Origin: Gemmatimonadota bacterium
GTDB taxonomy: Bacteria > Gemmatimonadota > Gemmatimonadetes > Gemmatimonadales > GWC2-71-9
Reading direction: 5' to 3'
Assembly (NCBI GenBank): GCA_040002695.1
Contig: JBDUEA010000002.1
Location: 1 to 50,357, forward strand
DNA length: 50,357 nt
Numbering within the stretch: the stretch's first letter is position 1; each line of letters begins with the position of its first letter. Shown here one piece after another: positions 22,042-50,357 of the stretch. Both the position numbers and the translations under genes were made by a program. Under the pieces are notes generated by a model, which saw only the letters and a list, made by a program, of their open reading frames with translations, was not told the origin of the DNA and ran no database searches.

Positions 22042-22063
22042 GGGTTGTCCTCTCCGGACCGAC

Positions 22064-25385: not shown

Positions 25386-25404
25386 TAGTTGCGAAAGAGC
25401 GAGT

Positions 25405-30192: not shown

Positions 30193-30198
30193 CGTTCC

Positions 30199-31560: not shown

Positions 31561-31576
31561 CAGTGACCCCGCCGGT

Positions 31577-33043: not shown

Positions 33044-33099
33044 CGTTCGCGTCAATTGATCGGAGGGAACGAACCGGAAAGTCGCAAGATAATCTCGAA

Positions 33100-35058: not shown

Positions 35059-35354
35059 CAGGGATGCTCGTCTGGATTCGCCGGAATCTTCAGCAGGACG
35101 ATCTCCGAATCACTCGGCGCGTGCAGTCCGAGACTCTGCTCGGCCAGCCTTCCGAGCGCCTGGCGACCGCTCAGTTCGCGGATGCGATGCTGCAGTTCGG
35201 CGCGCTGGGCCTCGAGTGCCGTCCGATTCTCCCGGACCTTCGTCAGCCGACCGCTGATGCTGATGGCGGAGGTCTGACGCGCCGTGACGATGACCGCCAC
35301 CACAAGAAAGAGCAGGAGCCACAGCATCACCCAGTGGCGGCCTTTAGCGCTCAT
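35058..35354 (-). CDS. ftsL: Cell division protein FtsL-like
   Basis: 98 aa with a single TM WVMLWLLLFLVVAVIV followed by a coiled coil (ENRTALEAQRAELQHRIRELS). It sits between rsmH and ftsI. Confidence 0.7.
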   Translation of the reverse strand: MSAKGRHWVMLWLLLFLVVAVIVTARQTSAISISGRLTKVRENRTALEAQRAELQHRIRELSGRQALGRLAEQSLGLHAPSDSEIVLLKIPANPDEHP

Positions 35355-36264
35355 GAGGAACGCGGAACACCCTCAGCTTTGCGCTGCGGGCGCGGGAGTT
35401 GGAGGCGACTTCGGCGGGAGCGGGCACGATCGGTTTCCGCGGCTCCAGAGTGCCGAGCGGACGGGCGCGGCAGGTGCAGATGGGTTGTTCCGGGGGACAG
35501 ACACAGGAGCGCGCCCAATCCTGAAAGGCGTGCTTCACCACTCGATCTTCCCCCGAATGATAACTGATTATCGCCAGCGCCCCATCAGGCATCAGGGCGT
35601 CGCGCCAGACCGGGAGCGCCGTGGATAGGCCGCCGAGCTCATCATTGACGGCAATGCGGACCGCCTGAAAGATGCGGGCGAAATCCGAGGGGCCAGACTG
35701 AGGACCCAGCACGGCGCGAATAGCGTTGACGAGGTCATCGCTCGTCGCGTGAGGACCCCGATCGCGGCGGCGGACTACTTCCCGGGCGAGACGCCCCGCC
35801 CGTCGCTCGTCGGCGTAGTCGGAGAAGATGTCGCGAAGCTCTTCCTCCGAGGCCTCGTTCAGCAGATCGGCGGCGCTCGTCCCCGTAGAGGACATGCGCA
35901 TATCGAGTGGAGCGCCCGGCCGGAAACTGAACCCGCGAGTCTCGTCGTCGAGCTGACGCGAGGAGACGCCGAGATCGAGCAAGATGAAATCGGGATGGAA
36001 GGCCTGAACCGCCTCGAGCACCGTGCGCTCGCCGAATGCGCCGAGCAGCAGGGTGACGTCTCGACCGGCCAGCCGGGTGCCCGCCACTTCGAGCGCTACC
36101 GGATCCCGGTCGATTGCGAGGAGCGTTACTCCAGTGTCCAGCAGCGACGCGGCATGCCCACCACCGCCAACCGTGCCATCCACGGCACGCCGGGCGCCGC
36201 GCGCCGCGTTGAGCACTTCACGGAGCAGCACTGGTTCATGATAGGTCGATGGGAGGTCGCTCAT
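35344..36264 (-). CDS. rsmH: 16S rRNA (cytosine1402-N4)-methyltransferase RsmH
   Basis: HEPVLLREV, GTVGGGGHA and DLGVSSRQLD motifs. 306 aa. It is the first gene of the dcw cluster. Confidence 0.93.
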   Translation of the reverse strand: MSDLPSTYHEPVLLREVLNAARGARRAVDGTVGGGGHAASLLDTGVTLLAIDRDPVALEVAGTRLAGRDVTLLLGAFGERTVLEAVQAFHPDFILLDLGVSSRQLDDETRGFSFRPGAPLDMRMSSTGTSAADLLNEASEEELRDIFSDYADERRAGRLAREVVRRRDRGPHATSDDLVNAIRAVLGPQSGPSDFARIFQAVRIAVNDELGGLSTALPVWRDALMPDGALAIISYHSGEDRVVKHAFQDWARSCVCPPEQPICTCRARPLGTLEPRKPIVPAPAEVASNSRARSAKLRVFRVPHER

Positions 36265-36336
36265 GGCGCCGGGTCCGGTCGGAAATGCAACACCCCGCCC
36301 GCAGGCGCGGACGGGGTGAGGAATCGAGTAAACCAG

Positions 36337-36411
36337 CGGGGCTGACGGGGCTCGAACCCGCGACCTCCGCAGTGACAGTGCGGCACTCTAACCAAGCTGA
36401 GCTACAGCCCC
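36337..36411 (-). tRNA. tRNA-Asp (anticodon GTC)
   Basis: The minus strand reads GGGGCTG-TA-GCTCAGCTTGGTTAGAGT-G-CCGCA-CTGTCAC-TGCGG-AGGTC-GCGGG-TTCGAGC-CCCGT-CAGCCCC-G. It folds as a cloverleaf with a 7-bp acceptor stem. No CCA is encoded. Confidence 0.9.
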
Positions 36412-38283: not shown

Positions 38284-38358
38284 TGGGCGAAGAGGGATTC
38301 GAACCCCCGACATCCTGCGTGTAAGGCAGGCGCTCTGAACCAGCTGAGCTATTCGCCC
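38284..38358 (-). tRNA. tRNA-Val (anticodon TAC)
   Basis: The minus strand reads GGGCGAA-TA-GCTCAGCTGGTTCAGAGC-G-CCTGC-CTTACAC-GCAGG-ATGTC-GGGGG-TTCGAAT-CCCTC-TTCGCCC-A. The acceptor stem pairs over 7 bp. Confidence 0.9.
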
Positions 38359-38621: not shown

Positions 38622-39608
38622 TTACACAACCCCGTCGTGCTGGTCAACCGGCGGCTCCGGATCTTCGACGATCACCCACCCATCGTTGAGCGCGGCACGA
38701 CGAGGCGCATCCGCCCGCCTCCGAGCCCACAGTATCCCTCCCAATCCGAACGCCACGATCGCCCAGAACCCACCTGCAAGGAGCCACGTGAGGATACCGT
38801 AACGTGTCTTGAGCGACCGCTGCCACTCCGTTTCGAAGCGACTCTCGGTCAGCCCCGTGGTCTCGACGAGCGCGGAATCGAAGTCCTCCCCTGCTTCGAG
38901 GTGACTCATTAGCGGGGCGATTGTCCCCGATGGATTACGTCGGGCAAGTTCCAGGACCGCCGACACCGCCAGCGCGTAGGCCGCATCCGCCGTGTTGGCG
39001 GAACCGCGGAGGAGCCCGTCGAGTTCTCTGAGCCCCGGACGGCTGCCGCTCGCCACGGCGAGATTGAGCTTGAGGGATTCGAGCCGGTCCCACTCATTGG
39101 CTCCCCACGACGCGTACCCTTCATCGAACCAGAGGGGCACCCGGACCTTGACCGCGTCATGCAGGGCGAGATGACCGAGCTCATGACGAAGCGTATGATC
39201 CAGCCCGTCGAGATCGGCGCGGAGAATGATGATGTGCGGGTCCGGGAGCGCGATGCCCGCCCCCCAGGCAGGCGCTCTCCCGCGGGAAATCCGGGCAAGC
39301 GCCGCAGCGTCCGCAACGACGATCAACCGAAATGGTGGCAGTACGCGTGTCCCGAGCCCAGGCCACGGAAGCGGCCGGTCGGCACGCTCCGCGAGCCCGA
39401 TTCCGAGTGCGAGGTGTGCGGGATCGGCGATGACCGTGATCCGGCCGACCTGCGTCTCGACGGCACCGGGCGCTATCGTTTGGGCTCGTGCGCCGGAAGC
39501 CCGGAGCAGGAGCATGCCTGTCAGGGGAATCGTTAGGAGGAGAGTCCGCGCGGCGGTTCCCCTCCCGACGCGATCAGGTCGAGCATTTCCTTGCAGCGCT
39601 TGCCCCAC
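38622..39608 (-). CDS. Exported HExxH zinc-metallopeptidase-like protein with a C-terminal TM anchor
   Basis: HELGHLALHD motif followed by WFDEGYASW (a possible third ligand Glu). It has a signal-like N-terminus and a C-terminal TM ILTWLLAGGFWAIVAFGLGGILW. The start is uncertain: candidates are 39608, 39569 (GTG) and 39515 (ATG). Confidence 0.6.
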   Translation of the reverse strand: MGQALQGNARPDRVGRGTAARTLLLTIPLTGMLLLRASGARAQTIAPGAVETQVGRITVIADPAHLALGIGLAERADRPLPWPGLGTRVLPPFRLIVVADAAALARISRGRAPAWGAGIALPDPHIIILRADLDGLDHTLRHELGHLALHDAVKVRVPLWFDEGYASWGANEWDRLESLKLNLAVASGSRPGLRELDGLLRGSANTADAAYALAVSAVLELARRNPSGTIAPLMSHLEAGEDFDSALVETTGLTESRFETEWQRSLKTRYGILTWLLAGGFWAIVAFGLGGILWARRRADAPRRAALNDGWVIVEDPEPPVDQHDGVV

Positions 39609-40417
39609 GGATTGAACTTGTTCGCCTTGTAACCCTCGGTCCAGGTCTGGAGCGCAGGCTCACGCTCGCCGAGAAACCAGTCCACTCGCCCGAGCTCGAA
39701 GTACGCCTCGATGAGATTGGGACCGAGTTGGACCGTCTTCTGGAAGAAGGTTTGCGCGTCCTCGAACATCTCGCGCTCCAGGTAGACGAGCCCCAGGTAA
39801 TAATGCGCGTACAACGTCGCCTTGCGATCGTTGTCGAGCCTGATCGCCTTGGACAAATGCTCGATCGCCTCTCCGAAGATCCGCTTCTTGAGACAAATGT
39901 ACCCGACGTTGATGCGGGCGAGCGAATTCGCGGGCTCTTTCATCAGCACCTTGGAGAACGTCGTCAGCGCGTCATCGTACTCTTCATGCAGCATCTGGGC
40001 CCAGCCCAGTAGCGACTGCGCCTGGATATCCGCCGGAGAAAGCGTGAGCGCCCTGTTGAGACTCTGGATCGCCGCGGCATAATCGCCGAGGGAAATCAGG
40101 CTCCAACCCTTCTCGATGTAGGTGGAGGCGCCAAGGTGATCCGCGTGGACGACCGGTCTCGCCCCAGTGAACTGTGGCGCCTGCGCCGAATCCGTCGACG
40201 CGGCGAGCTGCTTGTAGCGCTCCACGAGTCCACGGATATCCTCCTTGAGTTGGGTCAGCTCGGTGAGCGAGCCATCGACCCGCTTGAAGAAGGAAATGAT
40301 CTCGCGCTTGATCGCTTCCCGTTCGGGGGTGGTGCCCGCCTGCTCCAGGCGGGCGACGATTTCCTGGTACTGCGCCCTGAGCCCCGCGACCGGCGAATCC
40401 GGAACCGGCGCTGTCAT
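39533..40417 (-). CDS. Cytoplasmic TPR-repeat protein with an N-terminal coiled coil
   Basis: 294 aa with TPR repeats (GDYAAAIQSLNRALTLSP, YDDALTTFSKVLMKEP, FGEAIEHLSKAIRLD, FEDAQTFFQKTVQLGP). 4-nt overlap with cheW. Confidence 0.75.
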   Translation of the reverse strand: MTAPVPDSPVAGLRAQYQEIVARLEQAGTTPEREAIKREIISFFKRVDGSLTELTQLKEDIRGLVERYKQLAASTDSAQAPQFTGARPVVHADHLGASTYIEKGWSLISLGDYAAAIQSLNRALTLSPADIQAQSLLGWAQMLHEEYDDALTTFSKVLMKEPANSLARINVGYICLKKRIFGEAIEHLSKAIRLDNDRKATLYAHYYLGLVYLEREMFEDAQTFFQKTVQLGPNLIEAYFELGRVDWFLGEREPALQTWTEGYKANKFNPWGKRCKEMLDLIASGGEPPRGLSS

Positions 40418-40875
40418 GACGCTGCCTCGGCAAGCGCGAGCCGCTCGGTCGAGCTGAACAGGCGGCCCGCGTTGAGTACGACGATCGTCCGGCCCGGCCG
40501 GCTGATGATTCCGGAGATGTAGTCCGCCGAAAGCCCGCGCACCATCGGCGGCGGTGCGGAAATGGTGCGGGTATCGACACGAAGCACTTCCAGTACCTGG
40601 TCAACCACTACCGCGATGCGCTGCCCTTCGAGCTCCAGGACCATCTGCCTGGTTTCCTCGCGAAGCCTGGCTTCGACACTGAGCCGTTTGCGCAGATCGA
40701 TCACCGGTACGACGCCACCGGCGTACGGCACCACACCTTCGAGGTAGTCGGGAGACTTGGGCAGGCTCGCGGGCTTCGAATACCGGAGGATCCGCTCGAC
40801 CTGAAAAATGTTGAGCGCGAACTCCTGGCTCCCCACCCGGAAGGTCACGAACTGCAATTCGTCTGCGGTGGTCAT
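40414..40875 (-). CDS. cheW: Chemotaxis coupling protein CheW
   Basis: 153 aa. FVTFRVGSQEFALNIFQVERIL...GVVPYAGGVVPVIDLRKRL is a classic CheW fold signature. Confidence 0.9.
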   Translation of the reverse strand: MTTADELQFVTFRVGSQEFALNIFQVERILRYSKPASLPKSPDYLEGVVPYAGGVVPVIDLRKRLSVEARLREETRQMVLELEGQRIAVVVDQVLEVLRVDTRTISAPPPMVRGLSADYISGIISRPGRTIVVLNAGRLFSSTERLALAEAAS

Positions 40876-41303
40876 GAGATCGGTTTAGCCTCCGCGAGGC
40901 GCTCGGCCAGCGCACTCAGGTTCAGAATCGGGATCAGGCCTTCGGGACGGCGAACGACGGATGTCGCCCACGGCATCGATTCGCCGGGTGGGACAGGAAG
41001 CCGTTCTCCATCGGATACAAAATCGGCTTCATCGACTTCCAGACAGATCGAGAGCCCCTGGACATCGACGAGCACGCCAGCGGCGGTCGGGTTCTCGCCT
41101 ATCGGGCCGCCCCGGAGCAGCGCCCCGAGATGAAAGATCGGCACCAGGTGACCCCTCGCGAGCGTGACGCCGCGCATCGATGGTATGACGGACGGTACCG
41201 GGTGCACCGCTCCGAGATCCTTCACTTCGATCACGTCCTCGAGCGGAAGTCCGACGCTCAGCCGGTCGACCCGGACAAGCAGGAACGAGTTCGCGCCGCT
41301 CAT
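40872..41303 (-). CDS. Second, divergent CheW-like protein
   Basis: 143 aa. [21 protein letters not shown]...[21 protein letters not shown] matches the CheW pattern but has diverged from its neighbour. Confidence 0.8.
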
Positions 41304-42370
41304 CTGCGCGGAAGCCGGGTCAACAACTCAGTGACCCTCGGTGCGATCGCGGTGAGTGAGAGCACTTCGTCGGCCCCGCCACTCTGTGCGGCGGCATTGG
41401 GCATTCCGAAGATGGTGGAACTTTCCCGATCCTGAGCAATCCCGATGCCGCCCGCATCGTGAATCGCCCGAAGTCCCAGTGCGCCATCCCGGCCTAGGCC
41501 GGTGAGGACGACTCCAATTGCGGATCCGTTGAAAATTCCCGCGACCGAATGAAAGAGCGGGTCCGCGGCGGGCCGGACTCCCCAGACCTGAGGCTCCTTA
41601 TCCAGCACGAGCCGCAGGCCACCGTCTCCATTGGTGACGCGCATGTGGAAATCGCCGGGGGCGATATAGGCAGTATCGGCATTCACGGGAGAACCATGCT
41701 CCGCCTCCACTACCAGCAGCTGACTCTGCGCCGCGAGTCGCTCCGCCAGACTCCGCGTGAAACGAGGCGGCATGTGCTGGACGACGAGGACGGCGGCCCC
41801 CTGCCCTGTGATCAGTTGCGGTATCAGCTCCGCGAGTGCCCGCGGCCCTCCGGTCGAGGCGGCCACCGCGACGCAGGCACCGGCCTCGTTGGGGGATCGG
41901 TCCTGCTTCTCGATCGAGCGATGGCGCGGCCGGGCCAGCATCGGCACCCGGTAGATATCCGCGGCGCGCGCGGCGCGAAGCGCATTGATGAGACGAGGCC
42001 CGATGCGTACGGCGTCCTGCCGGACGCCATCGTCTTCCTTTTCCACAAGTTCAACGGCGCCCAGCTCGAGAGCCCGAATGGTGAGGGCGGATCCGGCCCC
42101 GGCGTAGGAGCTTACCACGACGATCGGCCTCGGGCTCTCGGACATGATGTAACCGATCGTGCTGATCCCGTCGACGAGTGGCATTTCGAGATCCATCGTG
42201 ACGAGATCGGGTTGGAGCTCGTGCACTTTGGCGAGCGCTTCCATCCCGTTCGCGGCGGTCCCGACCACGCGGAACTGGCCCGACCCGTTGATGATCTGCG
42301 AAATCAGCCGGCGGAAGAACAGGCTGTCATCCACGACGAGGACGCCGGGGATGCTAGAGGAGCTGTTCAC
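41300..42370 (-). CDS. cheB: Chemotaxis response regulator protein-glutamate methylesterase CheB
   Basis: Receiver domain ([12 protein letters not shown]...[14 protein letters not shown]) plus a methylesterase domain ([26 protein letters not shown]). I prefer the GTG start at 42370, because the ORF-track start at 42445 overlaps cheD by 92 nt. Confidence 0.9.
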
Positions 42371-42839
42371 CGTGCGCCACCGATTTAATTTCGATCCGGT
42401 TGAGGCGAACATGGAACCGTACGGAGCGGCCGAAATCTCCTCCAACCGATTCCCCGATGACCGGGATGCCCTGCGAGTTGAGGACTTCCCTGGTGGCTAC
42501 CAGATTCCGCTCACCCATTTGGATCGACCCCGGCGGCGCCAGGCCGGCGAACATGCTCGCTCCACCTACGAGACGGGCGGTCAGCCGTCCCGGAATCGCG
42601 CCGAGAAGGCTCATCTCGGCAACCAGGGCGGGGACGGCCGATTGAGGAAACTTCGCGGGATTCTCGGTGCCCCGACTCAGTGATCGAGATGGAAGCAGGA
42701 TATGCGCGAGACCACCGACCTTGCTCTCGTTATCGAACAGCAGAATGGCGACGCAGCTGCCGAGGCCGAGCGTGACGAGAATGTCTTCCCCGCTGCCGGC
42801 CTTGAGATCCGCCACCCGCACCATCAGTTCCCGACTCAT
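42354..42839 (-). CDS. cheD: Chemoreceptor glutamine deamidase CheD
   Basis: [14 protein letters not shown] with the catalytic Cys, GLAHILLP and GGASMF motifs. 161 aa. Confidence 0.9.
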
Positions 42840-43660
42840 TCGACGGGCCGCCGATAAATGCGTTCGCGCGCGTCCACCAGTTCGAGACGATTGCGCGACG
42901 GACCAAAGATCGTCTCCACTTTGCCGAGCAGCAGGTAACCTCCAGGGCGAAGCGCGTCATGGAAGCGCTCGAGCAGCGCTTCCTGCGTCGGCCGATCGAA
43001 ATAGATCACGACGTTCCGGCAGGTGATGAGATCATACGGAGCGCCGGGAGCCGCTTCCCGAGTCAGATCATTCCGGGTGACGCGCACTCGGGCGCGTAGT
43101 TCCGGCGTAACGCTCCAGCCATCGGCGCCATCGGAGACGAAGTATTTCGAGATGAGTTCGGGTGGCGTTTCCGCCAGCGAAGGCGTCTGATAGAATGCGG
43201 CTGCGCACCGTTCCAGCGACATCCGGTCGATATCCGTGGCGTCGATCGCGTACCGGTCACGCCACTGCGGATTGGAGCGCAATCCGGCCTCGGCCAGCAG
43301 GATCGCGATCGTGTACGGCTCTTCTCCCGACGAGCACCCGGCACTCCAGACGCGGACCCGTCCGTGCAGGCGCTCGAAGAGGTCGCTGATGGCGGTCTCG
43401 GAGACCCGAGCCCATGCCTCCCGGTTCCGGAAGAACTTGGTCACGTTGATGGTCAGCACATCGAAGAGCGATGCCATCTCTGCCGGAGTCTTCGACAGCA
43501 CGCGGCGGTACTCCTCGAAGGTATGAACTCCGCACGCGCGCATGCGAACCGCGATGCGCCGGCGGAGGCATTTTTCCTTATACGCGCCAAGAGTCATTCC
43601 CGTGCCGGCGGAAATGACGGTGGCAAGCGCGGCAAAGCTCGCTTCATCCTCGGCGCTCAC
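42836..43660 (-). CDS. cheR: Chemotaxis protein methyltransferase CheR
   Basis: TKFFRN, VWSAGCSSGEEPYTIA and CRNVVIYF SAM-methyltransferase motifs. 274 aa. Confidence 0.92.
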   Translation of the reverse strand: MSAEDEASFAALATVISAGTGMTLGAYKEKCLRRRIAVRMRACGVHTFEEYRRVLSKTPAEMASLFDVLTINVTKFFRNREAWARVSETAISDLFERLHGRVRVWSAGCSSGEEPYTIAILLAEAGLRSNPQWRDRYAIDATDIDRMSLERCAAAFYQTPSLAETPPELISKYFVSDGADGWSVTPELRARVRVTRNDLTREAAPGAPYDLITCRNVVIYFDRPTQEALLERFHDALRPGGYLLLGKVETIFGPSRNRLELVDARERIYRRPVE

Positions 43661-45276
43661 ACGCTTGCATCCAGCGTATCGAGATTGGCCCGCGCCAGCT
43701 GGTGTCCGGGGTTGAGCTCGGTGACGCGCTGCCAGCAGTATCGCGCCCGCTCGCGGTCTCTGCGTTTGTACGCAATGTTGCCGAGCTTGAAGTAGAGATC
43801 ATCTCCGAGATCGGGACTCAGCTTTGCGGCGCGTTCATAGGCCTCCGCAGCCTCCTCGTAGCGTCCGGCCCGGTAATGCAGGTCCGCGAGGTTCTTCGAG
43901 ATCTGCGGCATGGTCGGTTCTTCCTGCAGCGCGCCGGTGAGCAGCGCCTCGGCGCCTTCGAGATCGCCGCTCAGCTCCAGGAGGACAGCCAGGTTGTTCC
44001 GCAGCACCGCATTTCCCGGATACGCCGCCACGCCGTCCCTGCCGGCTGCAAGTGCGCCGTCGATGTCTCCGGCCCCGGCGGCCGCGAGCGCGCTCGCCCA
44101 GTACCAGGTGGCCGGCACCGGCCGGTCTCCCAGCAGCTCCTTCGCGCGGGCGAGTCTGCCCGAGGCGACTTCGGCATCGTTCCGCTTGAGCGCGATGATT
44201 CCCCATCCGAGCATCAGCCGCGCGTCATCACGGGAGCGACTGACCGCCTCGCCGTAGGCGGTCTCGGCTTCGGAAAGGCGGCCGAGCTGCTCGAGAGCAA
44301 AGGCGAGATTATGCAGGGCGGCGGGGCGGCTTCCTCCCTTGTCCACCGCCTGGCGCAGGGCATCCACCGCCTCCAGCCAGCGCGCCTGCTTGAGCGCGAT
44401 CAGGCCGAGGTAGAAGGGTGCACTGGCCTCGGCGGGCCGGAGCTCGGCGACCCGGCGGAACTCGCGTTGGCCCTCGTCGAGCATGCCGGTCTTGTAGAAC
44501 GCGATGCCGAGGTTTCGATGCTCCTCGACGCGGACGTCGTTCACCTTGGGTGCGGTGGGCGTCGCGGAAGTGCCGATCCGCCGCACAAATCCGGCGGTGA
44601 TCAATCCATATAGCGCTTTCCCCACCTCGAACTCCACGAGGCCCGAGTCTTCCACGACCTGGTGCACGTCCCGCGCGCCGTCGAGCAGCAGGAGGATGCG
44701 TTCCTGTTCGGGGCTCAAGCCAGCGTCGGTACCGTTCGTGCGGTCTCGATCCGGCGCGAAGATCAGGTCGAAGGTGGGGATCTTCTTCTCGACCAGGCTC
44801 CATTCGTCGACCCGTCGCGCGCCTTCGAGCAGCAACGACTCCGGATTGATCTGGACGAGGAAATCCTGCTGCTCAGGCCGCACCCCGGCTTCGAAGTTGA
44901 AGGTTCCCGACGTCCACGTGAACAGGAAGTAGACGGCCTCCTCGATCTGGAGGCGCATGTACTCTTCCAGCTCCGACCGCGCGATTGCCCCGATGTTCAC
45001 CAGGATCTCGCCCAGCTTCTGTTCCCGGTGCTCTTCCTGGAGCTCGATCGCGCGCTCGAGCTGCTCCCGGCTGATGCGGTTGCTCTTCGACAGCAGGTCA
45101 CCCAGGCGATCCCGTCGATTCACAATGGATGCGTAGCAGATCCACCCCTCGTCGAAATAGATGTAGCCGAAGTTGTGACGATCGGCCACGGCGAGGCAGC
45201 CGGTTTTCTTCCCTAGCGCGAGGAGCTGGAGAACGTCCGGAAGACTCGCTTCCTTGAGACTGCCCTTGATCGCCAT
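43657..45276 (-). CDS. DUF4388 (PATAN-like) domain protein fused to a long TPR array
   Basis: N-terminus [49 protein letters not shown] is a DUF4388 signature. It is followed by about 8 TPR repeats. 539 aa. Confidence 0.8.
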   Translation of the reverse strand: MAIKGSLKEASLPDVLQLLALGKKTGCLAVADRHNFGYIYFDEGWICYASIVNRRDRLGDLLSKSNRISREQLERAIELQEEHREQKLGEILVNIGAIARSELEEYMRLQIEEAVYFLFTWTSGTFNFEAGVRPEQQDFLVQINPESLLLEGARRVDEWSLVEKKIPTFDLIFAPDRDRTNGTDAGLSPEQERILLLLDGARDVHQVVEDSGLVEFEVGKALYGLITAGFVRRIGTSATPTAPKVNDVRVEEHRNLGIAFYKTGMLDEGQREFRRVAELRPAEASAPFYLGLIALKQARWLEAVDALRQAVDKGGSRPAALHNLAFALEQLGRLSEAETAYGEAVSRSRDDARLMLGWGIIALKRNDAEVASGRLARAKELLGDRPVPATWYWASALAAAGAGDIDGALAAGRDGVAAYPGNAVLRNNLAVLLELSGDLEGAEALLTGALQEEPTMPQISKNLADLHYRAGRYEEAAEAYERAAKLSPDLGDDLYFKLGNIAYKRRDRERARYCWQRVTELNPGHQLARANLDTLDASV

Positions 45277-47264
45277 CAGCGCAGATCCTCGATCACACGG
45301 TCAGCGACATCCGGCCAGTCCCAGACCGTCTTTTCCCGGCTCCGGACGCTGCCGAGCGGAGACACGATGCCACTCGTCCGGCCGGAATTTGTACGCCGGA
45401 CCGGCGCGGCCGGACTGCCTTCCAGCAGCCGCCGCGCGATGGTGAGGCTGGGTCGAACCTGCTGAGCGTCAGCCGCCTGGACTACGCGCTGCACCAGTCC
45501 CTGCAATCCACGAATCGAATCCGCCGGACGACTGGACAGGTACGCGACCAGTTCCTCATCCTGATTTTCGAGGCGTGCGGAGAGCAGCCGCTCGACAATG
45601 GCGACACGAATTTCCCGCTCCGGCATCGGCAATTCTACGACCAGGCCGCCCTCGAGGCGCGTGATCAGGCGCGGCTCGACGCCTTCGAGCTCCTGCAGCG
45701 GAAGCGCACAGGTGAACACCATCTGGCGACCTGCCTCCTGCAGGAGGTTGAAAAGCCAGAAGAGCTCCTCCTGCGTCCGTTCCTTGCCGGCGATCAGGTG
45801 GATATCGTCGAGCAGCAGCGCGGTGATGCGCCGGTAGCGCGCGCGCCACCACGTGACCCGGTCGCGGTCGATGGCCTTGATGAGCTCATCGATGAAGTCC
45901 TGTGCGTTGAGGCAGGCGACGATCGACTCGGCCGCATGCGCGAGCTCATTCCCGATGCCGTGCAGCAAATGAGTCTTGCCGACACTGGTGCCGCCGGTGA
46001 TCACCAGCGGATTGTATTCGTTCCCCGGCGTGGCGATGACAGCCGCCGCCGCACGCAGGGCCATCCGGTTGCTCGCGGCTTCGACGAACTCCTTGAGATC
46101 CCAGAAGGGTGAGGGACCGGGAGGTGGGCTGGTGCCCAGTCGTGCGCGATCGACAAGCGCCCGCGCCTCCTCGACCGCGTCAGGATCACGGAAGAGCGGG
46201 AGTCCGGGCAGCGCCGGATCGAGTTCAGTCGCTTCGGCCTGCAGCAGTCGCAGGCGTTCGATGTCCTTGACGAATTCCTGCACCACCGCCTCAGGATCCA
46301 CCGGCGACTGCTCCTCCAGCAGCGCATCGAGGCGCTGAGTCCGGTAGCCCTCCCCTTCCCAGCGGAGAATCGCTTCAGCGACGCGGGCTTTCCATGCGTC
46401 CACCTGCTGCGTTACCGTGTTCACGATTTCGGAGAGAAAGGAGCCGAACTCGTCGGGGGCGGGCTCCGCACGTGAGGCACCCGGGCTCGCGACACCGGTG
46501 ACGACGCTTCCTTCGACGCCCGCCGGTGCGCGCAGTGCCGCCGGAATCGACTTGCCCAGGACCGCGCGCGCCTGCGTTGCATCGAGCGGCGTATCGCTGA
46601 CGGCCTGGAAGGCGATCAGGCGATTGAGCGCGCCGATGAGTTCGCGGATGCTGTTGATCGCGAGGGAGGCGACCGTCTCGATGACGCCGGGTCCGAAATC
46701 GGCACGCCGCTCCTCCGCCTGGCGGCGCAGAATGGCCACGCGAGTCTCGTAGTCCGGCGCCGAGATATCGATGACGAGCCCGCCCGCGAAGCGCTGGATG
46801 AGCCGCTCGTCGAGCGCCTCGATTTCGTTCGGTGGACGGTCACTCGAGAGTACGATCTGGCGTCCGGAACTCAGCATCGTGTTCGTGAGCCTGAGCAGCT
46901 CCGCCTGCATCTCCCGCCGATGCGTGAGAAACTGGATATCGTCCACCAGCAGCAGATTGACCTCGGTGTATCGCTTGCGATACACGTCTCCCTGCCCCGC
47001 GGCGATCGCCGCGTGGAACGACTCGACGAAGTCATCGAGGGTGAGGTATTCGACCGCAACCTGGGGATTGATCACCGTCGCGGCCTGCCCGATCGCCATG
47101 AGCAGATGCGTCTTCCCCAGCCCGGACCCGGCATAGATGAAGAGCGGGTTGTAGACTGATCCCGGTGATTCCGCGACCGCCTTCGCTGCGGTTGCCGCAA
47201 GACGATTTGCGGAACCGACGACGTAATTCTCGAAGCGGTAGCGAGGGTTCAGCTGAATCGTCAC
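45276..47264 (-). CDS. Tandem DnaA-like AAA+ ATPase (two DnaA domain-III modules; no domain I/II and no domain IV)
   Basis: Module 1 (aa 5-235): [51 protein letters not shown], Walker [24 protein letters not shown] and [13 protein letters not shown]. Module 2 (aa 400-640): [46 protein letters not shown] and [13 protein letters not shown]. The C-terminal 50 aa show no DnaA-box-binding helix-turn-helix. Confidence 0.85.
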
Positions 47265-47863
47265 GGCGTCGGCGCCCCGGCCGCGAGCCGTTTGAGCACC
47301 AGCTCGGAAATCCCTTTCAGGGTCTCGAATACGCCGGCGCCGCGCAGGGCATCCGCGCCGAAGCTTCGGTGCGGACGGAAATTCAGCGCCTCATCGAGAT
47401 CCGCCGGAGTCAGGGTCAGATCGGACGGCAGGTCCTGCTTGTTGTATTGCAGGACGATCGGAAACTGGCGGACGTCGACGCCCTGACCCAGCAGATTGGC
47501 CTGGAGATTCTGCATACTTTCGATGTTATCGTCGAGGCGCCGGGCCTGACTGTCCGCGACGAACACCACGCCGTCGGTGCCCTGCAGCACCAGTTTTCGG
47601 GTGGCGTTGTAATAGACCTGGCCCGGGACGGTATAGAGTTGGAAGCGCGTCGTGAACCCCGAGATGATCCCGAGGTCCAGCGGCAGAAAATCAAAGAACA
47701 GGGTCCGGTCCGCCTGCGTGGCCAGCGAGACCATGCGTCCGCGACGGGTCTCCGGAACTCTGCCGTAGATGTAATGCAGATTCGTGGTCTTGCCGGACCG
47801 CCCCGGTCCGTAATATACGATCTTGCAGGTGATCTCACGGGTCGTGAAATTCACGAGAGACAT
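47261..47863 (-). CDS. mglA: Ras-like GTPase MglA (mutual gliding motility protein A family)
   Basis: 200 aa. [33 protein letters not shown]...[11 protein letters not shown]...[33 protein letters not shown]...LQYNKQDLP is near-colinear with Myxococcus MglA, including the PGQ switch-2 motif and NKxD. The longer 317-aa ORF extension is rejected. Confidence 0.92.
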
Positions 47864-47867
47864 TTGG

Positions 47868-48329
47868 TTACCGTCCGAAGAGCGCGCGAAGGCTCGCGTT
47901 GAGCTCCCGCTCGAAATTTTCCGCCAGCACTTCTCGCTTGGGAGCTTCGCGCGGTGCCGCCGCGGCCAGCTCCTCCACCATCTGTTCGAAGAACAGCTGC
48001 ACGATTCCCAGCGTCGTCTCGCCGCCGAACACCACGAGGCCGATCCACGGTCCGCGCGGCGTCTCGAACCACGCCAGGAAGTGACCCTGTCGCTGCCCCT
48101 GGTGCACCAGCACGCGAAACGGTCGCCATCCCATCTGCCGCGCGAGCTCACTCGACGAGGCGACGATGCCGGCCCCGAGTGCCGCGGCGGACATGAGATC
48201 GAGCGCGCCGGCAAAACCGTGTTGCGCCACGACCTGTCCCGAAAGCGTCATGAGCAGCGTCAGTCGCGCGGACGATTCAGCGACGAAGGTATTCAGCGGT
48301 CCGGCGACCCACGGTTCGATCGCCTTCAT
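47868..48329 (-). CDS. mglB: Roadblock/LC7 protein, MglB-like (candidate MglA GAP)
   Basis: 153 aa immediately upstream of mglA, as in Myxococcus. Pattern [16 protein letters not shown]...[23 protein letters not shown]...[15 protein letters not shown], plus a C-terminal tail ending LNASLRALF. Confidence 0.75.
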
Positions 48330-48679
48330 CAGGCGAGGCGCTCGGCGGCGCGAAGCGTCTCCAGCCGCGCGAGTCCGATGGGGACTTCACGGCCCGCGAG
48401 GATCACCAGCAGAAGGTCTCCCGCTCCCGCCGCCACGAGCAGTGCGCCGTCTTCCCCTTCGAGATGAATGAAATGCGGGGCCTGTCCGGCTGCTGCCCGC
48501 GTGATTCCCTCGACCCGTTTCGCCAGGCTTCCCGCGAGTGCGGCGAGCGCACGACCCTTCACGCCTTCCATCAGCGATTCCGCGACCACCACGCCGTCCT
48601 GTCCGGCGACGACCATCGCGCCATGCACGCCGCGAACGCGCGTCAGCGCATCCACAACGGCGACGTAGTCGACGCTCAT
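48329..48679 (-). CDS. Roadblock/LC7 domain protein (second paralogue)
   Basis: 116 aa from MSVDYVAVVDALTRVRGVHGAMVVAGQDGVVVAES...LAALAGSLAKRV...LLVAAGAGDLLLVILAGREVPIGLARLE. ATGA overlap with the upstream gene and 1-nt overlap with mglB. Confidence 0.7.
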   Translation of the reverse strand: MSVDYVAVVDALTRVRGVHGAMVVAGQDGVVVAESLMEGVKGRALAALAGSLAKRVEGITRAAAGQAPHFIHLEGEDGALLVAAGAGDLLLVILAGREVPIGLARLETLRAAERLA

Positions 48680-49545
48680 CGAACCAGCTCCAGCCACTGC
48701 CGTGCGGCCTTGGCTGCCCGCTCGGCAAGGAAGCCGACCTGCCCGACGGGCAGGTCGGCGGGACGCGCCGCGATGAGACAGGTATCCGGCGTCGGCTGCA
48801 CCAGCGAGAAATTCCATTCACCCGTCTCCACCGAGACGCTCTTCCATTCCCCCAATCCGAGAATTCGCGCCGCGCGTGCTGCCTCGCGCGCCGCTCCAGC
48901 GCCACAGGCGCTGATTTCTTCGCTTATATCAGCACCGTCAATGCTGCGGAATTCTCCCCCGAGGCGCAGCCCGCTTCCATCTACCAGGAGCAGCATATTC
49001 AGGGCATTCTCGACTCCGGCGAAGGGACCCTGCTCGTCGACGCCCTCGTCCGCGGACGCGAACGAGAATACCGGCGCGGCACTCGGCGTCGGGGGGACCG
49101 TCGACACAGCAGCTGACACCTCCGGCTCGCTCTGAGCGGGCGAGAGTCGCCCGCCTTCGACCAGCGCCAGTGCGGACAAAATGCCTTCGTCATCCGGAAC
49201 GATGGCCGCGGCCGCGCGAAGGTGTTCGCGCGCGTGCTCCGCGTCTCCGGCCTGGAAATAGAGAAAGCCGATTCCCTTGAGTGAGCCGAGGTGGTTGGGA
49301 TCGAGACGCAATGCCATGTCCCATTCATCGAACGCGCTGGCGAAGTCCCGCCGATCGGCGAGTACTCGCGCGTACAGATCGTGCGCATCGGGGAGATGCG
49401 GATATCGATTCAGTCCCGCGAGCGCCACCTTCTGCGCCGCGTCGAGCTGGCCGCGCCGCCGGAGCGCCTCGCCAAGACGCAGGAATACCAGGCTGGCGGG
49501 GTCGGCGGCCAGCGCCGCGGTAAGGCCGCGAATATCCTCGGTCAC
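48676..49545 (-). CDS. TPR - Roadblock/LC7 fusion protein
   Basis: 289 aa. The N-terminal half has TPR repeats (GQLDAAQKVALAGLNRYP, DFASAFDEWDMALRLDP, GDAEHAREHLRAAAAIVP). The C-terminal half reads NMLLLVDGSGLRLGGE...ISACGAGAAREAARAARILGLGEW..VSVETGEWNFSLVQPTPDTCLIAARPADLPVGQV, which is Roadblock-like. Confidence 0.65.
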   Translation of the reverse strand: MTEDIRGLTAALAADPASLVFLRLGEALRRRGQLDAAQKVALAGLNRYPHLPDAHDLYARVLADRRDFASAFDEWDMALRLDPNHLGSLKGIGFLYFQAGDAEHAREHLRAAAAIVPDDEGILSALALVEGGRLSPAQSEPEVSAAVSTVPPTPSAAPVFSFASADEGVDEQGPFAGVENALNMLLLVDGSGLRLGGEFRSIDGADISEEISACGAGAAREAARAARILGLGEWKSVSVETGEWNFSLVQPTPDTCLIAARPADLPVGQVGFLAERAAKAARQWLELVR

Positions 49546-50357
49546 GCGCCACCTCGCAGCGCGACGTCAATCGTCAGCGCAGCCTGACGCACCCGCTCGA
49601 TCAGTGGCATCTCCGCCTCCTCTTCCGGTGGCATGAGTCCCAGATTCTTCCATTGATCCCAGACTTCCACCGCTTCACGGAACCGGCCGCACGCGGCGAG
49701 ACTGAGCCCCAGCACCCGGTGGGCCGCCGGAGAAGTGGGATCGAGTTCGACGGCGATCCACAGCGAATCCGCAGCCTCCTCGTAGCGCGACGACGCGAGG
49801 AGTGCTCGGCCATAGACAAATTGCGCGAGGGGCTGGTGCGGATGCGCGGCGATCGCCCGCTCGGCCGCAGCGATCGCCGAGGCGGGGTCCCCGACGGCCA
49901 GATGACGCTCGGCCTCCTGAAGCAGCCGGGCCAATTCGCCACCGCTGGTGCCCTGGCTGCTGCGGCGCGCGGGATCCTCGAGATGAATGATACCCGCGCT
50001 GGTCAATCCGAAAACGGTCTTCGCGACATCGAACTCGGGCCGGCCCAGCTGGCTTGCGATGTCGCGTACGCTGCGTTCGCTGTCGACGACGGCAAGCACT
50101 TCCCATTCCGCCGGCAGCAGGTCGAGCGGCGCGGTTCCCTCTCCATTCGACGTCAGTCGGGGAATGAGCCCGAGATGGGTGATCCGTTTCTCGATACGGG
50201 ACCACTCGTCGATCCGGCGCGCCGCCTCCATCAGCAGGACCGCCGTTGGAATCCGAAAGGTCGCTTCGGTTTCCCAGTGCTCCCGGCCACGCTCCTCGAA
50301 GGCGAAGTATCCCTCCGACCAGCCCATCAGCTCGAAGATGACTTCCTCGACCTGGGC
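49542..50357 (-). CDS. Second DUF4388-TPR protein (partial; N-terminus beyond the right edge)
   Basis: The frame stays open to the window end. AQVEEVIFELMGWSEGYFAFEE...LLMEAARRIDEWSRIEKRI aligns with QIEEAVYFLFTWTSGTFNFEAG...LLLEGARRVDEWSLVEKKI of the 539-aa paralogue. The C-terminus has TPR repeats. Confidence 0.7.
   Translation of the reverse strand, partial: AQVEEVIFELMGWSEGYFAFEERGREHWETEATFRIPTAVLLMEAARRIDEWSRIEKRITHLGLIPRLTSNGEGTAPLDLLPAEWEVLAVVDSERSVRDIASQLGRPEFDVAKTVFGLTSAGIIHLEDPARRSSQGTSGGELARLLQEAERHLAVGDPASAIAAAERAIAAHPHQPLAQFVYGRALLASSRYEEAADSLWIAVELDPTSPAAHRVLGLSLAACGRFREAVEVWDQWKNLGLMPPEEEAEMPLIERVRQAALTIDVALRGGA

What the first reader, a model, noticed from the sequence alone, without database searches (positions are those of the whole stretch)
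45276..47264. 662-aa protein built from two tandem DnaA domain-III AAA+ modules with no DNA-binding domain, encoded directly downstream of mglA
Seen in the sequence:
- Residues 5-60 are almost a consensus DnaA domain-III start ([51 protein letters not shown]).
- Module 1 has Walker B (LLLVDDIQF), sensor-1 (SSDRPP), box VII (RFAGG) and sensor-2 ([13 protein letters not shown]).
- A second, more diverged copy follows ([49 protein letters not shown]).
- Domains I/II are missing, and the C-terminus has no domain-IV helix-turn-helix.

Established knowledge: canonical DnaA has a single domain III plus domain IV, and Hda-type paralogues have a single module.

Inference: this is an internally duplicated DnaA-derived ATPase recruited to a GTPase/chemosensory operon. 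It might build ATP-dependent oligomers without binding DnaA boxes, or it might connect polarity to replication control. It is likely to be mis-annotated automatically as the chromosomal replication initiator.
Basis: partly seen in the sequence, partly recalled or inferred. Interest (0 to 1): 0.8.

Follow-up and report, generated by a model that had tools for sequence, protein, structure and literature searches.

The report
Two-module DnaA-like ATPase in polarity operon
This gene looks like the bacterial replication starter DnaA, but it is a double-ATPase relative with no DNA-reading domain; it is found across the phylum Gemmatimonadota, almost always beside a PATAN or large TPR scaffold protein, and here it also sits with a cell-polarity GTPase and chemotaxis-type genes next to the cell-division cluster, with no function described so far.

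Summary
ORF 45276-47264 (-) encodes 662 aa with two DnaA domain-III AAA+ modules. Pfam Bac_DnaA matches twice; the halves are 34% identical (E 6e-39). There is no domain I or IV. mglA precedes it with a GTGA stop/start overlap.

It is not an artefact. Full-length orthologues occur in at least 161 GTDB species, all Gemmatimonadota apart from one mis-binned contig. About 100 further 50%-identity clusters share the same mod1-helical-mod2-tail layout.

The constant neighbour is not MglA. It is a PATAN and/or large TPR protein: PATAN-TPR lies immediately downstream in 138/145 loci. MglA/MglB and Che genes are a Gemmatimonadales addition. Longimicrobiales-type genomes have only rluD-DnaA2x-PATAN/TPR-peptidase.

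In that clade module 2 has lost Walker A/B but keeps both box-VII arginines (120/120 and 118/120), and module 1 stays fully catalytic.

Best reading, confidence 0.42: an ATP-driven assembly switch. Module 2 supplies the arginine finger to a module-1 site, and a conserved C-terminal W-x-W-P tail docks onto the PATAN-TPR partner. The output is probably spatial control (polarity or division), not origin firing.

It is auto-annotated as DnaA (TIGR00362 475.7 bits against a 343.9 cut-off). No paper describing it was found. Verdict: new variant of a known kind.

The parts
45276..47264 (-). DnaA2x: 662-aa protein with two DnaA domain-III AAA+ modules (stop codon included)
   Evidence: ORF. Pfam Bac_DnaA matches twice. 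117 full-length homologues.
46545..47264 (-). Module 1 (residues 1-240), a complete DnaA-type ATPase. Walker A K51, Walker B D108/D109, sensor-1 D142, box VII R154/R158 and sensor-2 R207.
   Evidence: These residues are invariant in 76 Gemmatimonadales orthologues. In 120 Longimicrobiales-type orthologues all are invariant except sensor-2 R207 (118/120). About 50% identical to B. subtilis DnaA domain III.
46455..46544 (-). Poorly conserved, disordered linker (residues 241-270)
   Evidence: pLDDT below 50. Mean column identity 0.21.
46137..46454 (-). Family-specific helical middle domain (residues 271-376), with conserved D271-E272-F273, W291 and W302
   Evidence: Domain-only model has pLDDT 89.8 and pTM 0.74. 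No PDB fold match; best E is 3.4. No Pfam match. Present in most two-module representatives.
45414..46109 (-). Module 2 (residues 386-617). Walker A K430, Walker B D486/D487, box VII R532/R536 and sensor-2 R585 are kept, but the sensor-1 Asp is replaced. It retains I462/I465 and the 'AGKERTQEE' motif.
   Evidence: In clade F, Walker A/B and sensor 2 are lost but R532 and R536 are kept in 120/120 and 118/120.
45279..45413 (-). Disordered C-terminal tail (residues 618-662) carrying the conserved motif S-R-E-K-x-V-W-D-W-P-D-x-x-D-R (residues 642-656, nt 45297-45341)
   Evidence: pLDDT below 50. S642 through W650 are invariant in 117 sequences. W650 and P651 are kept in 119/120 and 116/120 clade-F proteins. 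The tail co-occurs with the downstream PATAN-TPR gene in 106/111 loci and never occurs without it.
43657..45276 (-). PATAN (DUF4388/PatA_N) + TPR protein, 539 aa. Its ATG overlaps the DnaA2x stop (TGATG). Proposed direct partner.
   Evidence: Pfam DUF4388 E 3e-35 plus TPR. Junction. Immediately downstream in 138/145 loci.
47261..47863 (-). mglA (200 aa), a Ras-like polarity GTPase. Its stop overlaps the DnaA2x start (GTGA).
   Evidence: E 4e-71 to M. xanthus MglA structures. Junction. Upstream in 145/152 loci.
47868..48329 (-). mglB-like Roadblock protein (153 aa)
   Evidence: E 4e-7 to M. xanthus MglB. Present in 142/149 loci.
48329..48682 (-). Second Roadblock/LC7 protein (117 aa)
   Evidence: Pfam Robl_LC7 E 2e-9. 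PDB Roadblock hits.
48676..49545 (-). TPR protein (289 aa)
   Evidence: Pfam TPR. Present in 132/138 loci.
49542..50357 (-). PATAN + TPR protein, cut at its N-terminus by the end of the window (orthologues are 346-391 aa)
   Evidence: Pfam matches the DUF4388 C-terminal part plus TPR. Full-length orthologues in L001, L026 and L315.
40414..43660 (-). cheR (42836-43660), cheD (42354-42839), cheB (41300-42445), cheW (40872-41303) and a second, likely cheW (40414-40875)
   Evidence: Pfam CheR and CheW. CheD, CheB and the second CheW are assigned from called orthologues in related loci. This is the variable part of the cluster: CheR in 112/137 loci, CheB in 96/118.
38622..40417 (-). TPR protein (39533-40417) and membrane-anchored Peptidase_MA_2-like protein with an HELGH motif (38622-39608). 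These are the conserved end of the cluster.
   Evidence: Pfam. Present in 100/103 and 97/100 loci. Also kept in the reduced Longimicrobiales-type loci.

Best explanation
DnaA2x is a DnaA-derived, two-module AAA+ ATP switch that no longer reads DnaA boxes.

Module 1 is the constant catalytic site. The constant contribution of module 2 is its box-VII arginine pair. I infer that the protein assembles head-to-tail, within one chain and/or between chains, so that a module-2 arginine finger completes a module-1 ATP site. This would resemble the alternating competent and degenerate sites of ORC/Cdc6 or DnaA-DnaC assemblies.

Because both modules keep the initiator-specific helical insert, the assembly would be an open spiral or a dimer, not a closed unfoldase ring.

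The nucleotide state is read out through proteins, not through an origin. The disordered C-terminal W-x-W-P tail is proposed to dock on the TPR array of the PATAN-TPR protein translated from the overlapping downstream gene. The family-specific helical middle domain offers a second interaction surface.

In Gemmatimonadales this pair has been placed under an MglA/MglB GTPase switch and a Che-type pathway. It lies between the divIVA-ileS-lspA-rluD genes and the dcw cluster. The likely output is spatial control: polarity, or placement of a division, growth or motility machine.

**Shown:** architecture, motif conservation, synteny, translational coupling.
**Inferred:** oligomer geometry, tail-TPR docking, cellular role.
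For: - **Architecture.** Two DnaA-type modules; no domain I or IV.
- **Module 1.** All ATPase residues are invariant in 76 Gemmatimonadales sequences. In 120 clade-F sequences they are invariant except sensor-2 R207 (118/120).
- **Module 2, Gemmatimonadales.** Walker A K, Walker B DD, both box-VII Arg and sensor-2 Arg are invariant. The sensor-1 Asp is replaced.
- **Module 2, clade F.** Walker A K becomes A/G/P, DD becomes HG and sensor 2 is deleted. R532 is kept in 120/120 and R536 in 118/120. This is the pattern expected of an arginine-finger donor.
- **Initiator insert.** Neither module shows a gap against DnaA across the alpha3/alpha4 insert.
- **Partner gene.** The PATAN-TPR gene overlaps the stop codon and follows in 138/145 loci.
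- **Tail covariation.** Of 111 non-redundant loci, 106 have both tail and PATAN-TPR, 3 clade-E loci lack both, 2 lack only the tail, and none has the tail without PATAN-TPR.
- **Other contexts.** Every context examined has a PATAN and/or large TPR gene beside it.
- **Precedent.** MglA-TPR-PATAN associations are known from M. xanthus and from comparative genomics (PMC11580455; PMC4316618).
- **Position.** The cluster is flanked by rluD upstream in 36/36 and by mraW/dcw downstream in 35/36 full-flank loci.
- **No origin.** There is no DnaA-box cluster, skew switch or dnaN in the window.
Against: - No experiment exists and no interaction was modelled.
- The inter-module geometry in the AlphaFold model is unreliable (pTM 0.48), so the arginine-finger pairing is inference.
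- The tail/PATAN-TPR covariation rests on very few independent evolutionary events. It also has two exceptions, L163 and L315.
- Gene neighbourhood is the only evidence for a polarity or division role. In Longimicrobiales-type genomes the dcw cluster is not adjacent.
- Module 2 keeps residues that contact ssDNA in DnaA, even where its ATPase is dead. A purely protein-scaffold model does not explain this.
- The operon also ends with a metallopeptidase-like gene whose role the model ignores.
Confidence: 0.42

Rival explanations
1. Replication- or nucleoid-linked regulator. DnaA2x binds single-stranded DNA or the nucleoid in its ATP form, or co-oligomerises with and caps canonical DnaA filaments through its DnaA-like interfaces. 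Either way it would couple chromosome state to the polarity/Che module. This is Hda-like or ParA/PpfA-like logic.
For: - Module 1 is about 50% identical to canonical domain III, unusually conservative for a paralogue.
- Module 2 keeps 'AGKERTQEE', identical in its K-E-R-T core to the Aquifex DnaA segment that contacts ssDNA.
- Module 2 also keeps the two insert isoleucines equivalent to B. subtilis I190/I193 (residue roles are from memory of Duderstadt 2011 and Richardson 2016).
- I/L462, L/I465, E495, R496 and Q498 persist in clade F, where module 2 is catalytically dead.
- Initiator-clade relatives without specific DNA-binding domains (IstB, DnaC) bind DNA as ATP oligomers (established knowledge).
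Against: - No domain IV and no clamp-binding motif.
- Hda model TIGR03420 scores below its cut-off.
- In module 1 the equivalent motif has diverged to 'HRREMQ', and to 'GQPxAQ' in clade F.
- The conserved 'ER.Q.EFF' residues may be structural.
- No replication gene lies in any of about 160 neighbourhoods.
Confidence: 0.22
2. Dedicated MglA effector or regulator. The protein exists to act on, or be acted on by, MglA-GTP, for example as a GTPase-controlled ATPase output of the polarity switch.
For: - mglA stop and DnaA2x start overlap.
- mglA is immediately upstream in 145/152 loci.
- G. aurantiaca GAU_1409 is listed as 'PATAN>MglA>-PATAN>' in published Table S2. The unnamed gene between MglA and PATAN is in the position DnaA2x occupies here.
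Against: - Longimicrobiales-type orthologues, the reduced locus L317 and clade E have DnaA2x with PATAN/TPR but no adjacent mglA.
- The MglA link is therefore an add-on. It may still hold in this lineage.
Confidence: 0.15
3. ATPase partner of the conserved membrane Peptidase_MA_2-like protein. This would be a regulated-proteolysis module with the PATAN-TPR protein as adaptor.
For: The peptidase-like gene (HELGH motif) closes the cluster in 97/100 loci. It is retained in the minimal three-gene Longimicrobiales version.
Against: - Initiator-clade AAA+ modules have no pore loops or ring architecture for unfolding (established knowledge).
- The peptidase appears to be anchored in the membrane, with its catalytic part outside the cytoplasm. 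This is read from the sequence and was not tested.
- Clade E loci lack it.
Confidence: 0.05
4. It is the chromosomal replication initiator itself, or the only DnaA homologue of these bacteria.
For: - It passes the TIGR00362 cut-off.
- I could not retrieve a canonical Gemmatimonadota DnaA with the scans available.
Against: - No domain IV or domain I.
- No dnaN, no DnaA-box cluster and no skew switch.
- In clade F half of the protein is degenerate.
- The published G. aurantiaca mglA locus tag GAU_1409 shows this neighbourhood is far from the start of the genome numbering.
- G. aurantiaca was in the data set of a study that places dciA in or near the dnaA-dnaN-recF-gyrB operon in Gemmatimonadetes.
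Confidence: 0.02
5. Assembly or frameshift artefact that fuses two genes.
For: None. One long-read genome (L243) shows the opposite: the gene is split by a frameshift.
Against: The reading frame is continuous here. It is also continuous in over 100 independent assemblies of 645-679 aa with conserved linker domains.
Confidence: 0.01

Closest known systems
DnaA, the bacterial replication initiator (TIGR00362; Pfam PF11638 + PF00308 + PF08299)
   Same: - Both modules have the domain-III AAA+ fold (TM 0.92).
- Walker A/B, box VII with two arginines, sensor 2 and the initiator-specific insert are all present.
- Module 1 is about 50% identical to B. subtilis domain III.
   Different: - No domain I/II and no domain-IV helix-turn-helix.
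- Two modules in one chain, separated by a new helical domain.
- A conserved disordered W-x-W-P tail.
- Encoded in a PATAN/TPR/MglA/Che cluster instead of next to dnaN/oriC.
Hda / HdaA (TIGR03420), the single-module DnaA paralogue that inactivates DnaA-ATP with the sliding clamp
   Same: A DnaA-derived AAA+ protein lacking the DNA-binding domain. The arginine finger is the key functional residue.
   Different: - Hda has one module and an N-terminal clamp-binding motif.
- DnaA2x has two modules and no such motif.
- DnaA2x scores below the Hda cut-off (163.2 against 194.8).
- Each module is far closer to DnaA than to Hda.
Initiator-clade hetero-oligomers with mixed competent and degenerate ATP sites (ORC/Cdc6, DnaA-DnaC, clamp-loader-like logic)
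   Same: In clade F, module 2 has lost nucleotide-binding residues but keeps the arginine finger while module 1 stays catalytic. This is the pattern of an activator subunit completing a neighbour's site.
   Different: - Here the two subunits are fused in one polypeptide.
- The system has no identified DNA or helicase substrate.
- The geometry was not tested.
Type II (tandem) AAA+ proteins such as p97/Cdc48, NSF and ClpB
   Same: Two AAA+ modules in one chain. Foldseek aligns the whole model to them at low TM (0.24-0.30, rmsd over 22 A).
   Different: - Those belong to the classical/HCLR clades.
- They have pore loops and form stacked closed hexamers.
- DnaA2x modules are initiator-clade with the helical insert, which in DnaA enforces an open spiral.
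MglA/MglB polarity module with TPR effectors (SgmX) and PATAN proteins; Frz chemosensory input (Myxococcus xanthus)
   Same: - The operon has bona fide MglA, MglB and an extra Roadblock protein.
- It also has large TPR proteins, PATAN proteins and Che genes.
- MglA-PATAN neighbourhoods, and SgmX-PATAN co-occurrence, are published.
   Different: - No DnaA-like ATPase is part of any described MglA system.
- The published G. aurantiaca neighbourhood table leaves the gene between MglA and PATAN unnamed.
ParA-like PpfA encoded in a che operon (Rhodobacter sphaeroides). Functional analogy only, from memory.
   Same: A nucleotide-switch ATPase encoded inside a chemosensory cluster and used for spatial organisation.
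   Different: - An unrelated fold (deviant Walker A ParA/MinD).
- DNA binding by DnaA2x is unproven.

Membership tests
DnaA chromosomal replication initiator | AAA+ domain III (PF00308) with Walker A/B, box VII and sensor 2 | tested here: met
   Present twice. Pfam E 3.5e-96 with 2 stretches. Motifs confirmed.
DnaA chromosomal replication initiator | C-terminal domain IV helix-turn-helix that binds DnaA boxes (PF08299) | tested here: not met
   No PF08299 hit at E<=0.01 and none for the tail at E<=10. The C-terminal 45 residues are predicted disordered.
DnaA chromosomal replication initiator | N-terminal domain I (PF11638) plus linker | tested here: not met
   The protein starts at the domain-III boundary; residue 4 aligns to B. 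subtilis residue 110. No PF11638 hit.
DnaA chromosomal replication initiator | Encoded at or near oriC and dnaN, with DnaA-box clusters | tested here: not met
   No dnaN in the 50-kb window. DnaA-box matches are 3 against 2.4 expected and scattered. GC skew is flat.
DnaA chromosomal replication initiator | Score above the curated TIGR00362 cut-off | tested here: met
   475.7 bits against 343.9. This is reached only because two domain-III matches add up and only profile positions 103-339 are covered. It is a false positive of the model.
Hda / HdaA | Single domain-III module scoring above the TIGR03420 cut-off | tested here: not met
   163.2 bits against a cut-off of 194.8, and two modules are present. 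Module 2 matches DnaA with E 6e-41 but Hda only with 7e-8.
Hda / HdaA | N-terminal beta-clamp-binding motif (QL[SP]LPL-like) | tested here: not met
   No match to four clamp-motif patterns anywhere in the protein.
AAA+ initiator clade (DnaA/DnaC/Orc/IstB) | Extra helical insert (initiator-specific motif) between alpha3 and alpha4 | tested here: met
   Both modules align to DnaA without gaps through this segment. The fold matches domain III at rmsd 1.8 A.
Type II tandem AAA+ unfoldases (p97/ClpB type) | Two AAA+ modules forming stacked hexameric rings with substrate pore loops | tested here: inconclusive
   Two modules are present. However, whole-chain Foldseek matches are poor (TM 0.24-0.30, rmsd over 22 A) and the modules are initiator-clade. 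Oligomeric state cannot be tested with these tools.
MglA-MglB polarity system (as a component) | Co-encoded with MglA and MglB wherever it occurs | tested here: not met
   True in 145/152 mostly Gemmatimonadales loci. Absent in clade F, clade E and locus L317.
PATAN/TPR-associated module (proposed here) | Adjacent PATAN-domain and/or large TPR gene | tested here: met
   PATAN-TPR is downstream in 138/145 loci. Clade E has TPR826-PATAN241 upstream. L233 has the orthologous 867-aa TPR gene upstream.

The most novel reading that the evidence does not exclude
DnaA2x keeps the ATP-dependent oligomerisation and single-strand or nucleoid contact surface of DnaA but has swapped origin recognition for PATAN/TPR and MglA partners. 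It would then report or use chromosome or replication state, or act directly on canonical DnaA filaments, to set cell polarity and division site. Gemmatimonadota is a phylum whose type genus divides partly by budding (from memory). That would be a direct molecular bridge between the replication-initiator fold and a Ras-like polarity switch.
Probability: 0.15. Interest if true: 0.85.

Novelty: new variant of a known kind. Interest (0 to 1): 0.6.

Why it matters
1. **A new use of the initiator fold.** The DnaA AAA+ module has been duplicated, stripped of DNA recognition and fixed across a whole phylum beside scaffold and polarity proteins. This gives a natural system for asking what the initiator-clade ATP switch can do away from origins.

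2. **A natural experiment within the family.** One clade has both sites intact. Another has module 2 reduced to an arginine-finger donor. This makes the mechanism directly testable.

3. **A missing component of a known neighbourhood.** MglA-PATAN neighbourhoods have been catalogued, but the gene between MglA and PATAN was left unnamed (PMC4316618 Table S2).

4. **An annotation problem.** The protein passes the curated DnaA equivalog cut-off and is labelled as the replication initiator in metagenome annotations. By inference, this can mislead origin prediction and could create a duplicate hit wherever TIGR00362 is used as a single-copy marker for Gemmatimonadota.

Tried and rejected
- **Canonical dnaA in the same genomes: failed.** The closest canonical domain-III hits to module 1 turned out to be Actinomyces and Clostridia or a Firmicute-type locus. 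I used P0250 (DnaA_N + domain III) as bait for the last genome scan. It recovered only module 1 of DnaA2x in Gemmatimonadota, plus one Alphaproteobacterial DnaA. P0250 sits on a 1.6-kb contig and may be chimeric. All four genome scans are used.
- **Taxonomy of distant representatives by exact look-up:** no organism names came back.
- **Family outside Gemmatimonadota:** two profile scans of GTDB genomes gave only Gemmatimonadota for two-module hits. One distant clade is labelled 'Cloacimonetes bacterium 4572_55'.
- **Middle domain and tail:** no Pfam match and no PDB fold match.
- **Clamp-binding motif:** none.
- **NJ tree of modules:** it shows orthology of module 1 and of module 2 across clades A-D. 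It does not resolve where the duplication sits relative to canonical DnaA.
- **Literature:** six searches combining DnaA, MglA, Roadblock, PATAN, Gemmatimonadota, tandem AAA+ terms or GAU locus tags found no description of this protein.
- **My first tail/PATAN co-occurrence count** was wrong because it used stop-to-stop ORF starts. It was redone with tblastn coordinates.

Full report
**1.
- The minus-strand ORF 45276-47264 starts with GTG and encodes 662 aa.
- Pfam finds the DnaA ATPase domain twice (E 3.5e-96). It finds neither the DnaA N-terminal domain nor the domain-IV helix-turn-helix.
- The two halves are 34% identical over 241 residues (E 6e-39).
- Module 1 aligns end to end with B. subtilis DnaA residues 110-349 (E 7e-58).
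- Module 2 on its own matches DnaA domain III with E 6e-41, Hda with 7e-8 and DnaI with 2e-3. Both modules therefore derive from DnaA proper.
- The AlphaFold model (pLDDT 80.7) has two DnaA-type folds, with TM 0.92 to B. subtilis domain III.
- Between the modules lie a disordered stretch (residues 240-270) and a confident helical domain (272-376). The C-terminal tail (618-662) is disordered.
- The upstream gene is a true MglA (E 4e-71). It is preceded by MglB and a second Roadblock protein.
- The mglA stop overlaps the DnaA2x start (GTGA). The DnaA2x stop overlaps the start of the next gene (TGATG).

**2. It is a real, conserved family.**
- The 120 best database hits are 645-679 aa and 64-91% identical, with 96-100% coverage.
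- A scan of one genome per GTDB species found 161 carriers. The 80 retrieved are all Gemmatimonadota, except one contig identical to a Gemmatimonadales contig, which is a binning error.
- An exhaustive search of 1.84 billion cluster representatives shows about 100 further 50%-identity clusters with the same layout: module 1, middle domain, module 2, tail. These fall into six clades.
- Profile scans seeded with the distant clades again returned only Gemmatimonadota for two-module hits.
- Clade F carries Longimicrobiales or Gemmatimonadota source names wherever it is named.
- A small clade E includes a MAG labelled Cloacimonetes 4572_55.
- Module 1 and module 2 each group across clades A-D, consistent with one old duplication.

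**3. What travels with it.**

| Lineage | Gene order |
|---|---|
| Gemmatimonadales | rluD / cheW-cheA-cheC / 900-aa TPR / PATAN-TPR / TPR / Roadblock / mglB / mglA / DnaA2x / PATAN-TPR / cheR-cheD-cheB-cheW-cheW / TPR / Peptidase_MA_2 |
| Longimicrobiales-type (clade F) and locus L317 | rluD-DnaA2x-PATAN/TPR-(TPR)-peptidase, after yggS-divIVA-pnp-ileS-lspA |
| Clade E | cheW-cheY-cheA-AAA-cheW-cheC-TPR-PATAN-DnaA2x, no MglA |
| Locus L233 | The orthologous 867-aa TPR gene directly upstream of DnaA2x |

- I counted neighbours over about 160 non-redundant loci with enough flank:

| Neighbour | Loci with it |
|---|---|
| mglA | 145/152 |
| mglB | 142/149 |
| Downstream PATAN-TPR | 138/145 |
| Terminal TPR | 100/103 |
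| Peptidase | 97/100 |
| cheR | 112/137 |
| cheB | 96/118 |

- The recurring partner is therefore a PATAN and/or large TPR protein. MglA and Che are lineage-specific additions.
- In this window the cluster is followed by tRNA-Val, a TPR protein, tRNA-Asp and a complete dcw cluster from mraW to ftsZ. In full-flank loci rluD lies upstream in 36/36 and mraW downstream in 35/36.

**4. Clues to mechanism.**
- In 76 Gemmatimonadales orthologues both modules keep several residues invariant: the Walker A Lys, Walker B Asp-Asp, both box-VII arginines and the sensor-2 Arg. Only the sensor-1 Asp of module 2 is replaced.
- In 120 clade-F proteins module 1 is essentially unchanged.
- In those same proteins module 2 has lost the Walker A Lys, Walker B (DD to HG) and the sensor-2 region. 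It still keeps R532 in 120/120 and R536 in 118/120.
- From memory, the residue equivalent to R158/R536 is the DnaA arginine finger (E. coli R285, B. subtilis R264). It completes the ATP site of the neighbouring protomer.
- The simplest reading is that the conserved job of module 2 is to donate an arginine finger to a module-1 site. The protein would then work as a built-in pseudo-dimer, or as an alternating head-to-tail oligomer.
- Neither module has a gap in the initiator-specific insert. This argues for an open assembly, not a closed ring.
- The tail motif S-R-E-K-x-V-W-D-W-P is invariant in 117 sequences. Its W-P core survives in clade F.
- Of 111 loci, 106 have both the tail and the downstream PATAN-TPR gene. 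Three clade-E loci lack both, two lack only the tail, and none has the tail alone.
- TPR arrays commonly bind short terminal peptides, so I propose tail-TPR docking. This is inference and rests on few independent events.
- The middle domain models confidently (pLDDT 89.8) but has no Pfam or PDB counterpart.

**5. The main rival.**
- Module 2 retains 'AGKERTQEE' and I462/I465. From memory, the DnaA equivalents (Aquifex K188/R190/T191, B. subtilis I190/I193) contact single-stranded DNA.
- Most of these positions persist even in the catalytically dead clade-F module.
- A nucleic-acid, nucleoid or DnaA-filament interaction therefore remains possible. I give it 0.22.
- Against it: there is no domain IV, no clamp motif and no replication gene in any neighbourhood. 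The module-1 motif has also diverged.

**6. What could not be settled.**
- Indirect support exists:
  - the window has no DnaA-box cluster, no skew switch and no dnaN;
  - published Table S2 of PMC4316618 lists G. aurantiaca GAU_1409 as 'PATAN>MglA>-PATAN>', which places this neighbourhood far from the start of the genome numbering and leaves the gene between MglA and PATAN unnamed;
  - PMC5109545 places dciA in or near the dnaA-dnaN-recF-gyrB operon in Gemmatimonadetes.

**7. Comparison and novelty.**
- The protein fails the DnaA membership test on domains I and IV and on genomic context.
- It fails the Hda test on module number, score and clamp motif.
- It nevertheless exceeds the curated TIGR00362 cut-off (475.7 against 343.9), because two partial matches add up. 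JGI annotation calls it the replication initiator; NCBI calls it 'DnaA/Hda family protein'.
- Six literature searches found no description of it.
- I classify it as a new variant of a known kind: a tandem, DNA-binding-domain-less DnaA paralogue with its own middle domain, its own tail and a conserved PATAN/TPR partnership.
- Interest is 0.6. The architecture and its phylum-wide fixation are surprising, and the natural loss of the module-2 site makes the mechanism testable. The cellular role rests on neighbourhood evidence only.

Noticed in passing
window 20881-36264 (-): A complete division/cell-wall (dcw) cluster lies directly downstream of the Che/MglA/DnaA2x cluster on the same strand: mraW, ftsI, murE, murF, mraY, murD, ftsW, murG, murC, ftsQ, ftsA, ftsZ. 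In related loci rluD, preceded by divIVA-ileS-lspA, lies upstream. The rluD...mraW bracketing holds in 35/36 full-flank loci.
   Followed up: partly
window 38622-50357 and loci L001, L026, L315, L321: The chemosensory gene set has cheA, three cheW, cheC, cheD, cheR and cheB but no receptor (MCP) gene. None is found in the cluster or in the flanks examined, although CheR/CheB need a methyl-accepting substrate.
   Followed up: no
P0199 (1990 aa), P0209 (1876 aa), P0247 (1381 aa), P0327 (839 aa): Other proteins use DnaA domain III without domain IV. Two giant proteins have an MshEN (c-di-GMP-binding, pilus-ATPase-type) N-terminus and two DnaA modules about 1300 residues apart. A Poribacteria protein named 'tetratricopeptide repeat protein' by NCBI ends in a DnaA module. 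A fourth protein combines a zinc ribbon with a DnaA module.
   Followed up: partly
P0250 (357 aa, 1.6-kb metagenome contig); loci L236, L246: This protein joins a DnaA_N domain closest to an Alphaproteobacterial DnaA with a domain III that is 84% identical to module 1 of a Gemmatimonadetes DnaA2x. It is either a chimeric contig or a real recombinant.
   Followed up: partly
L041 vs L043; L243 (OZ252244.1, 3.86-Mb chromosome): A contig binned as Solirubrobacterales has the same length and identical match coordinates and identities as a Gemmatimonadales contig, which points to binning contamination. In a complete long-read Gemmatimonadales chromosome DnaA2x is split between two frames, probably a sequencing frameshift.
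   Followed up: partly
L232 3743-4561, L316 4339-5157, L320 7074-7874: A 266-272-aa AAA_22/AAA_16 ATPase gene sits inside the che part of the cluster in clade E and in some Gemmatimonadota loci. It is absent from this window.
   Followed up: no
window 38622-39608 (-): The Peptidase_MA_2-like protein that closes the cluster has an HELGH zinc-protease motif and, read from the sequence only, hydrophobic N- and C-terminal segments. It is as conserved in position as the PATAN-TPR gene (97/100 loci) and is kept in the minimal three-gene version.
   Followed up: partly
window 36336-36411 and 38284-38358 (-): tRNA-Asp(GTC) and tRNA-Val(TAC) flank a 574-aa TPR protein between the cluster and mraW.
   Followed up: yes
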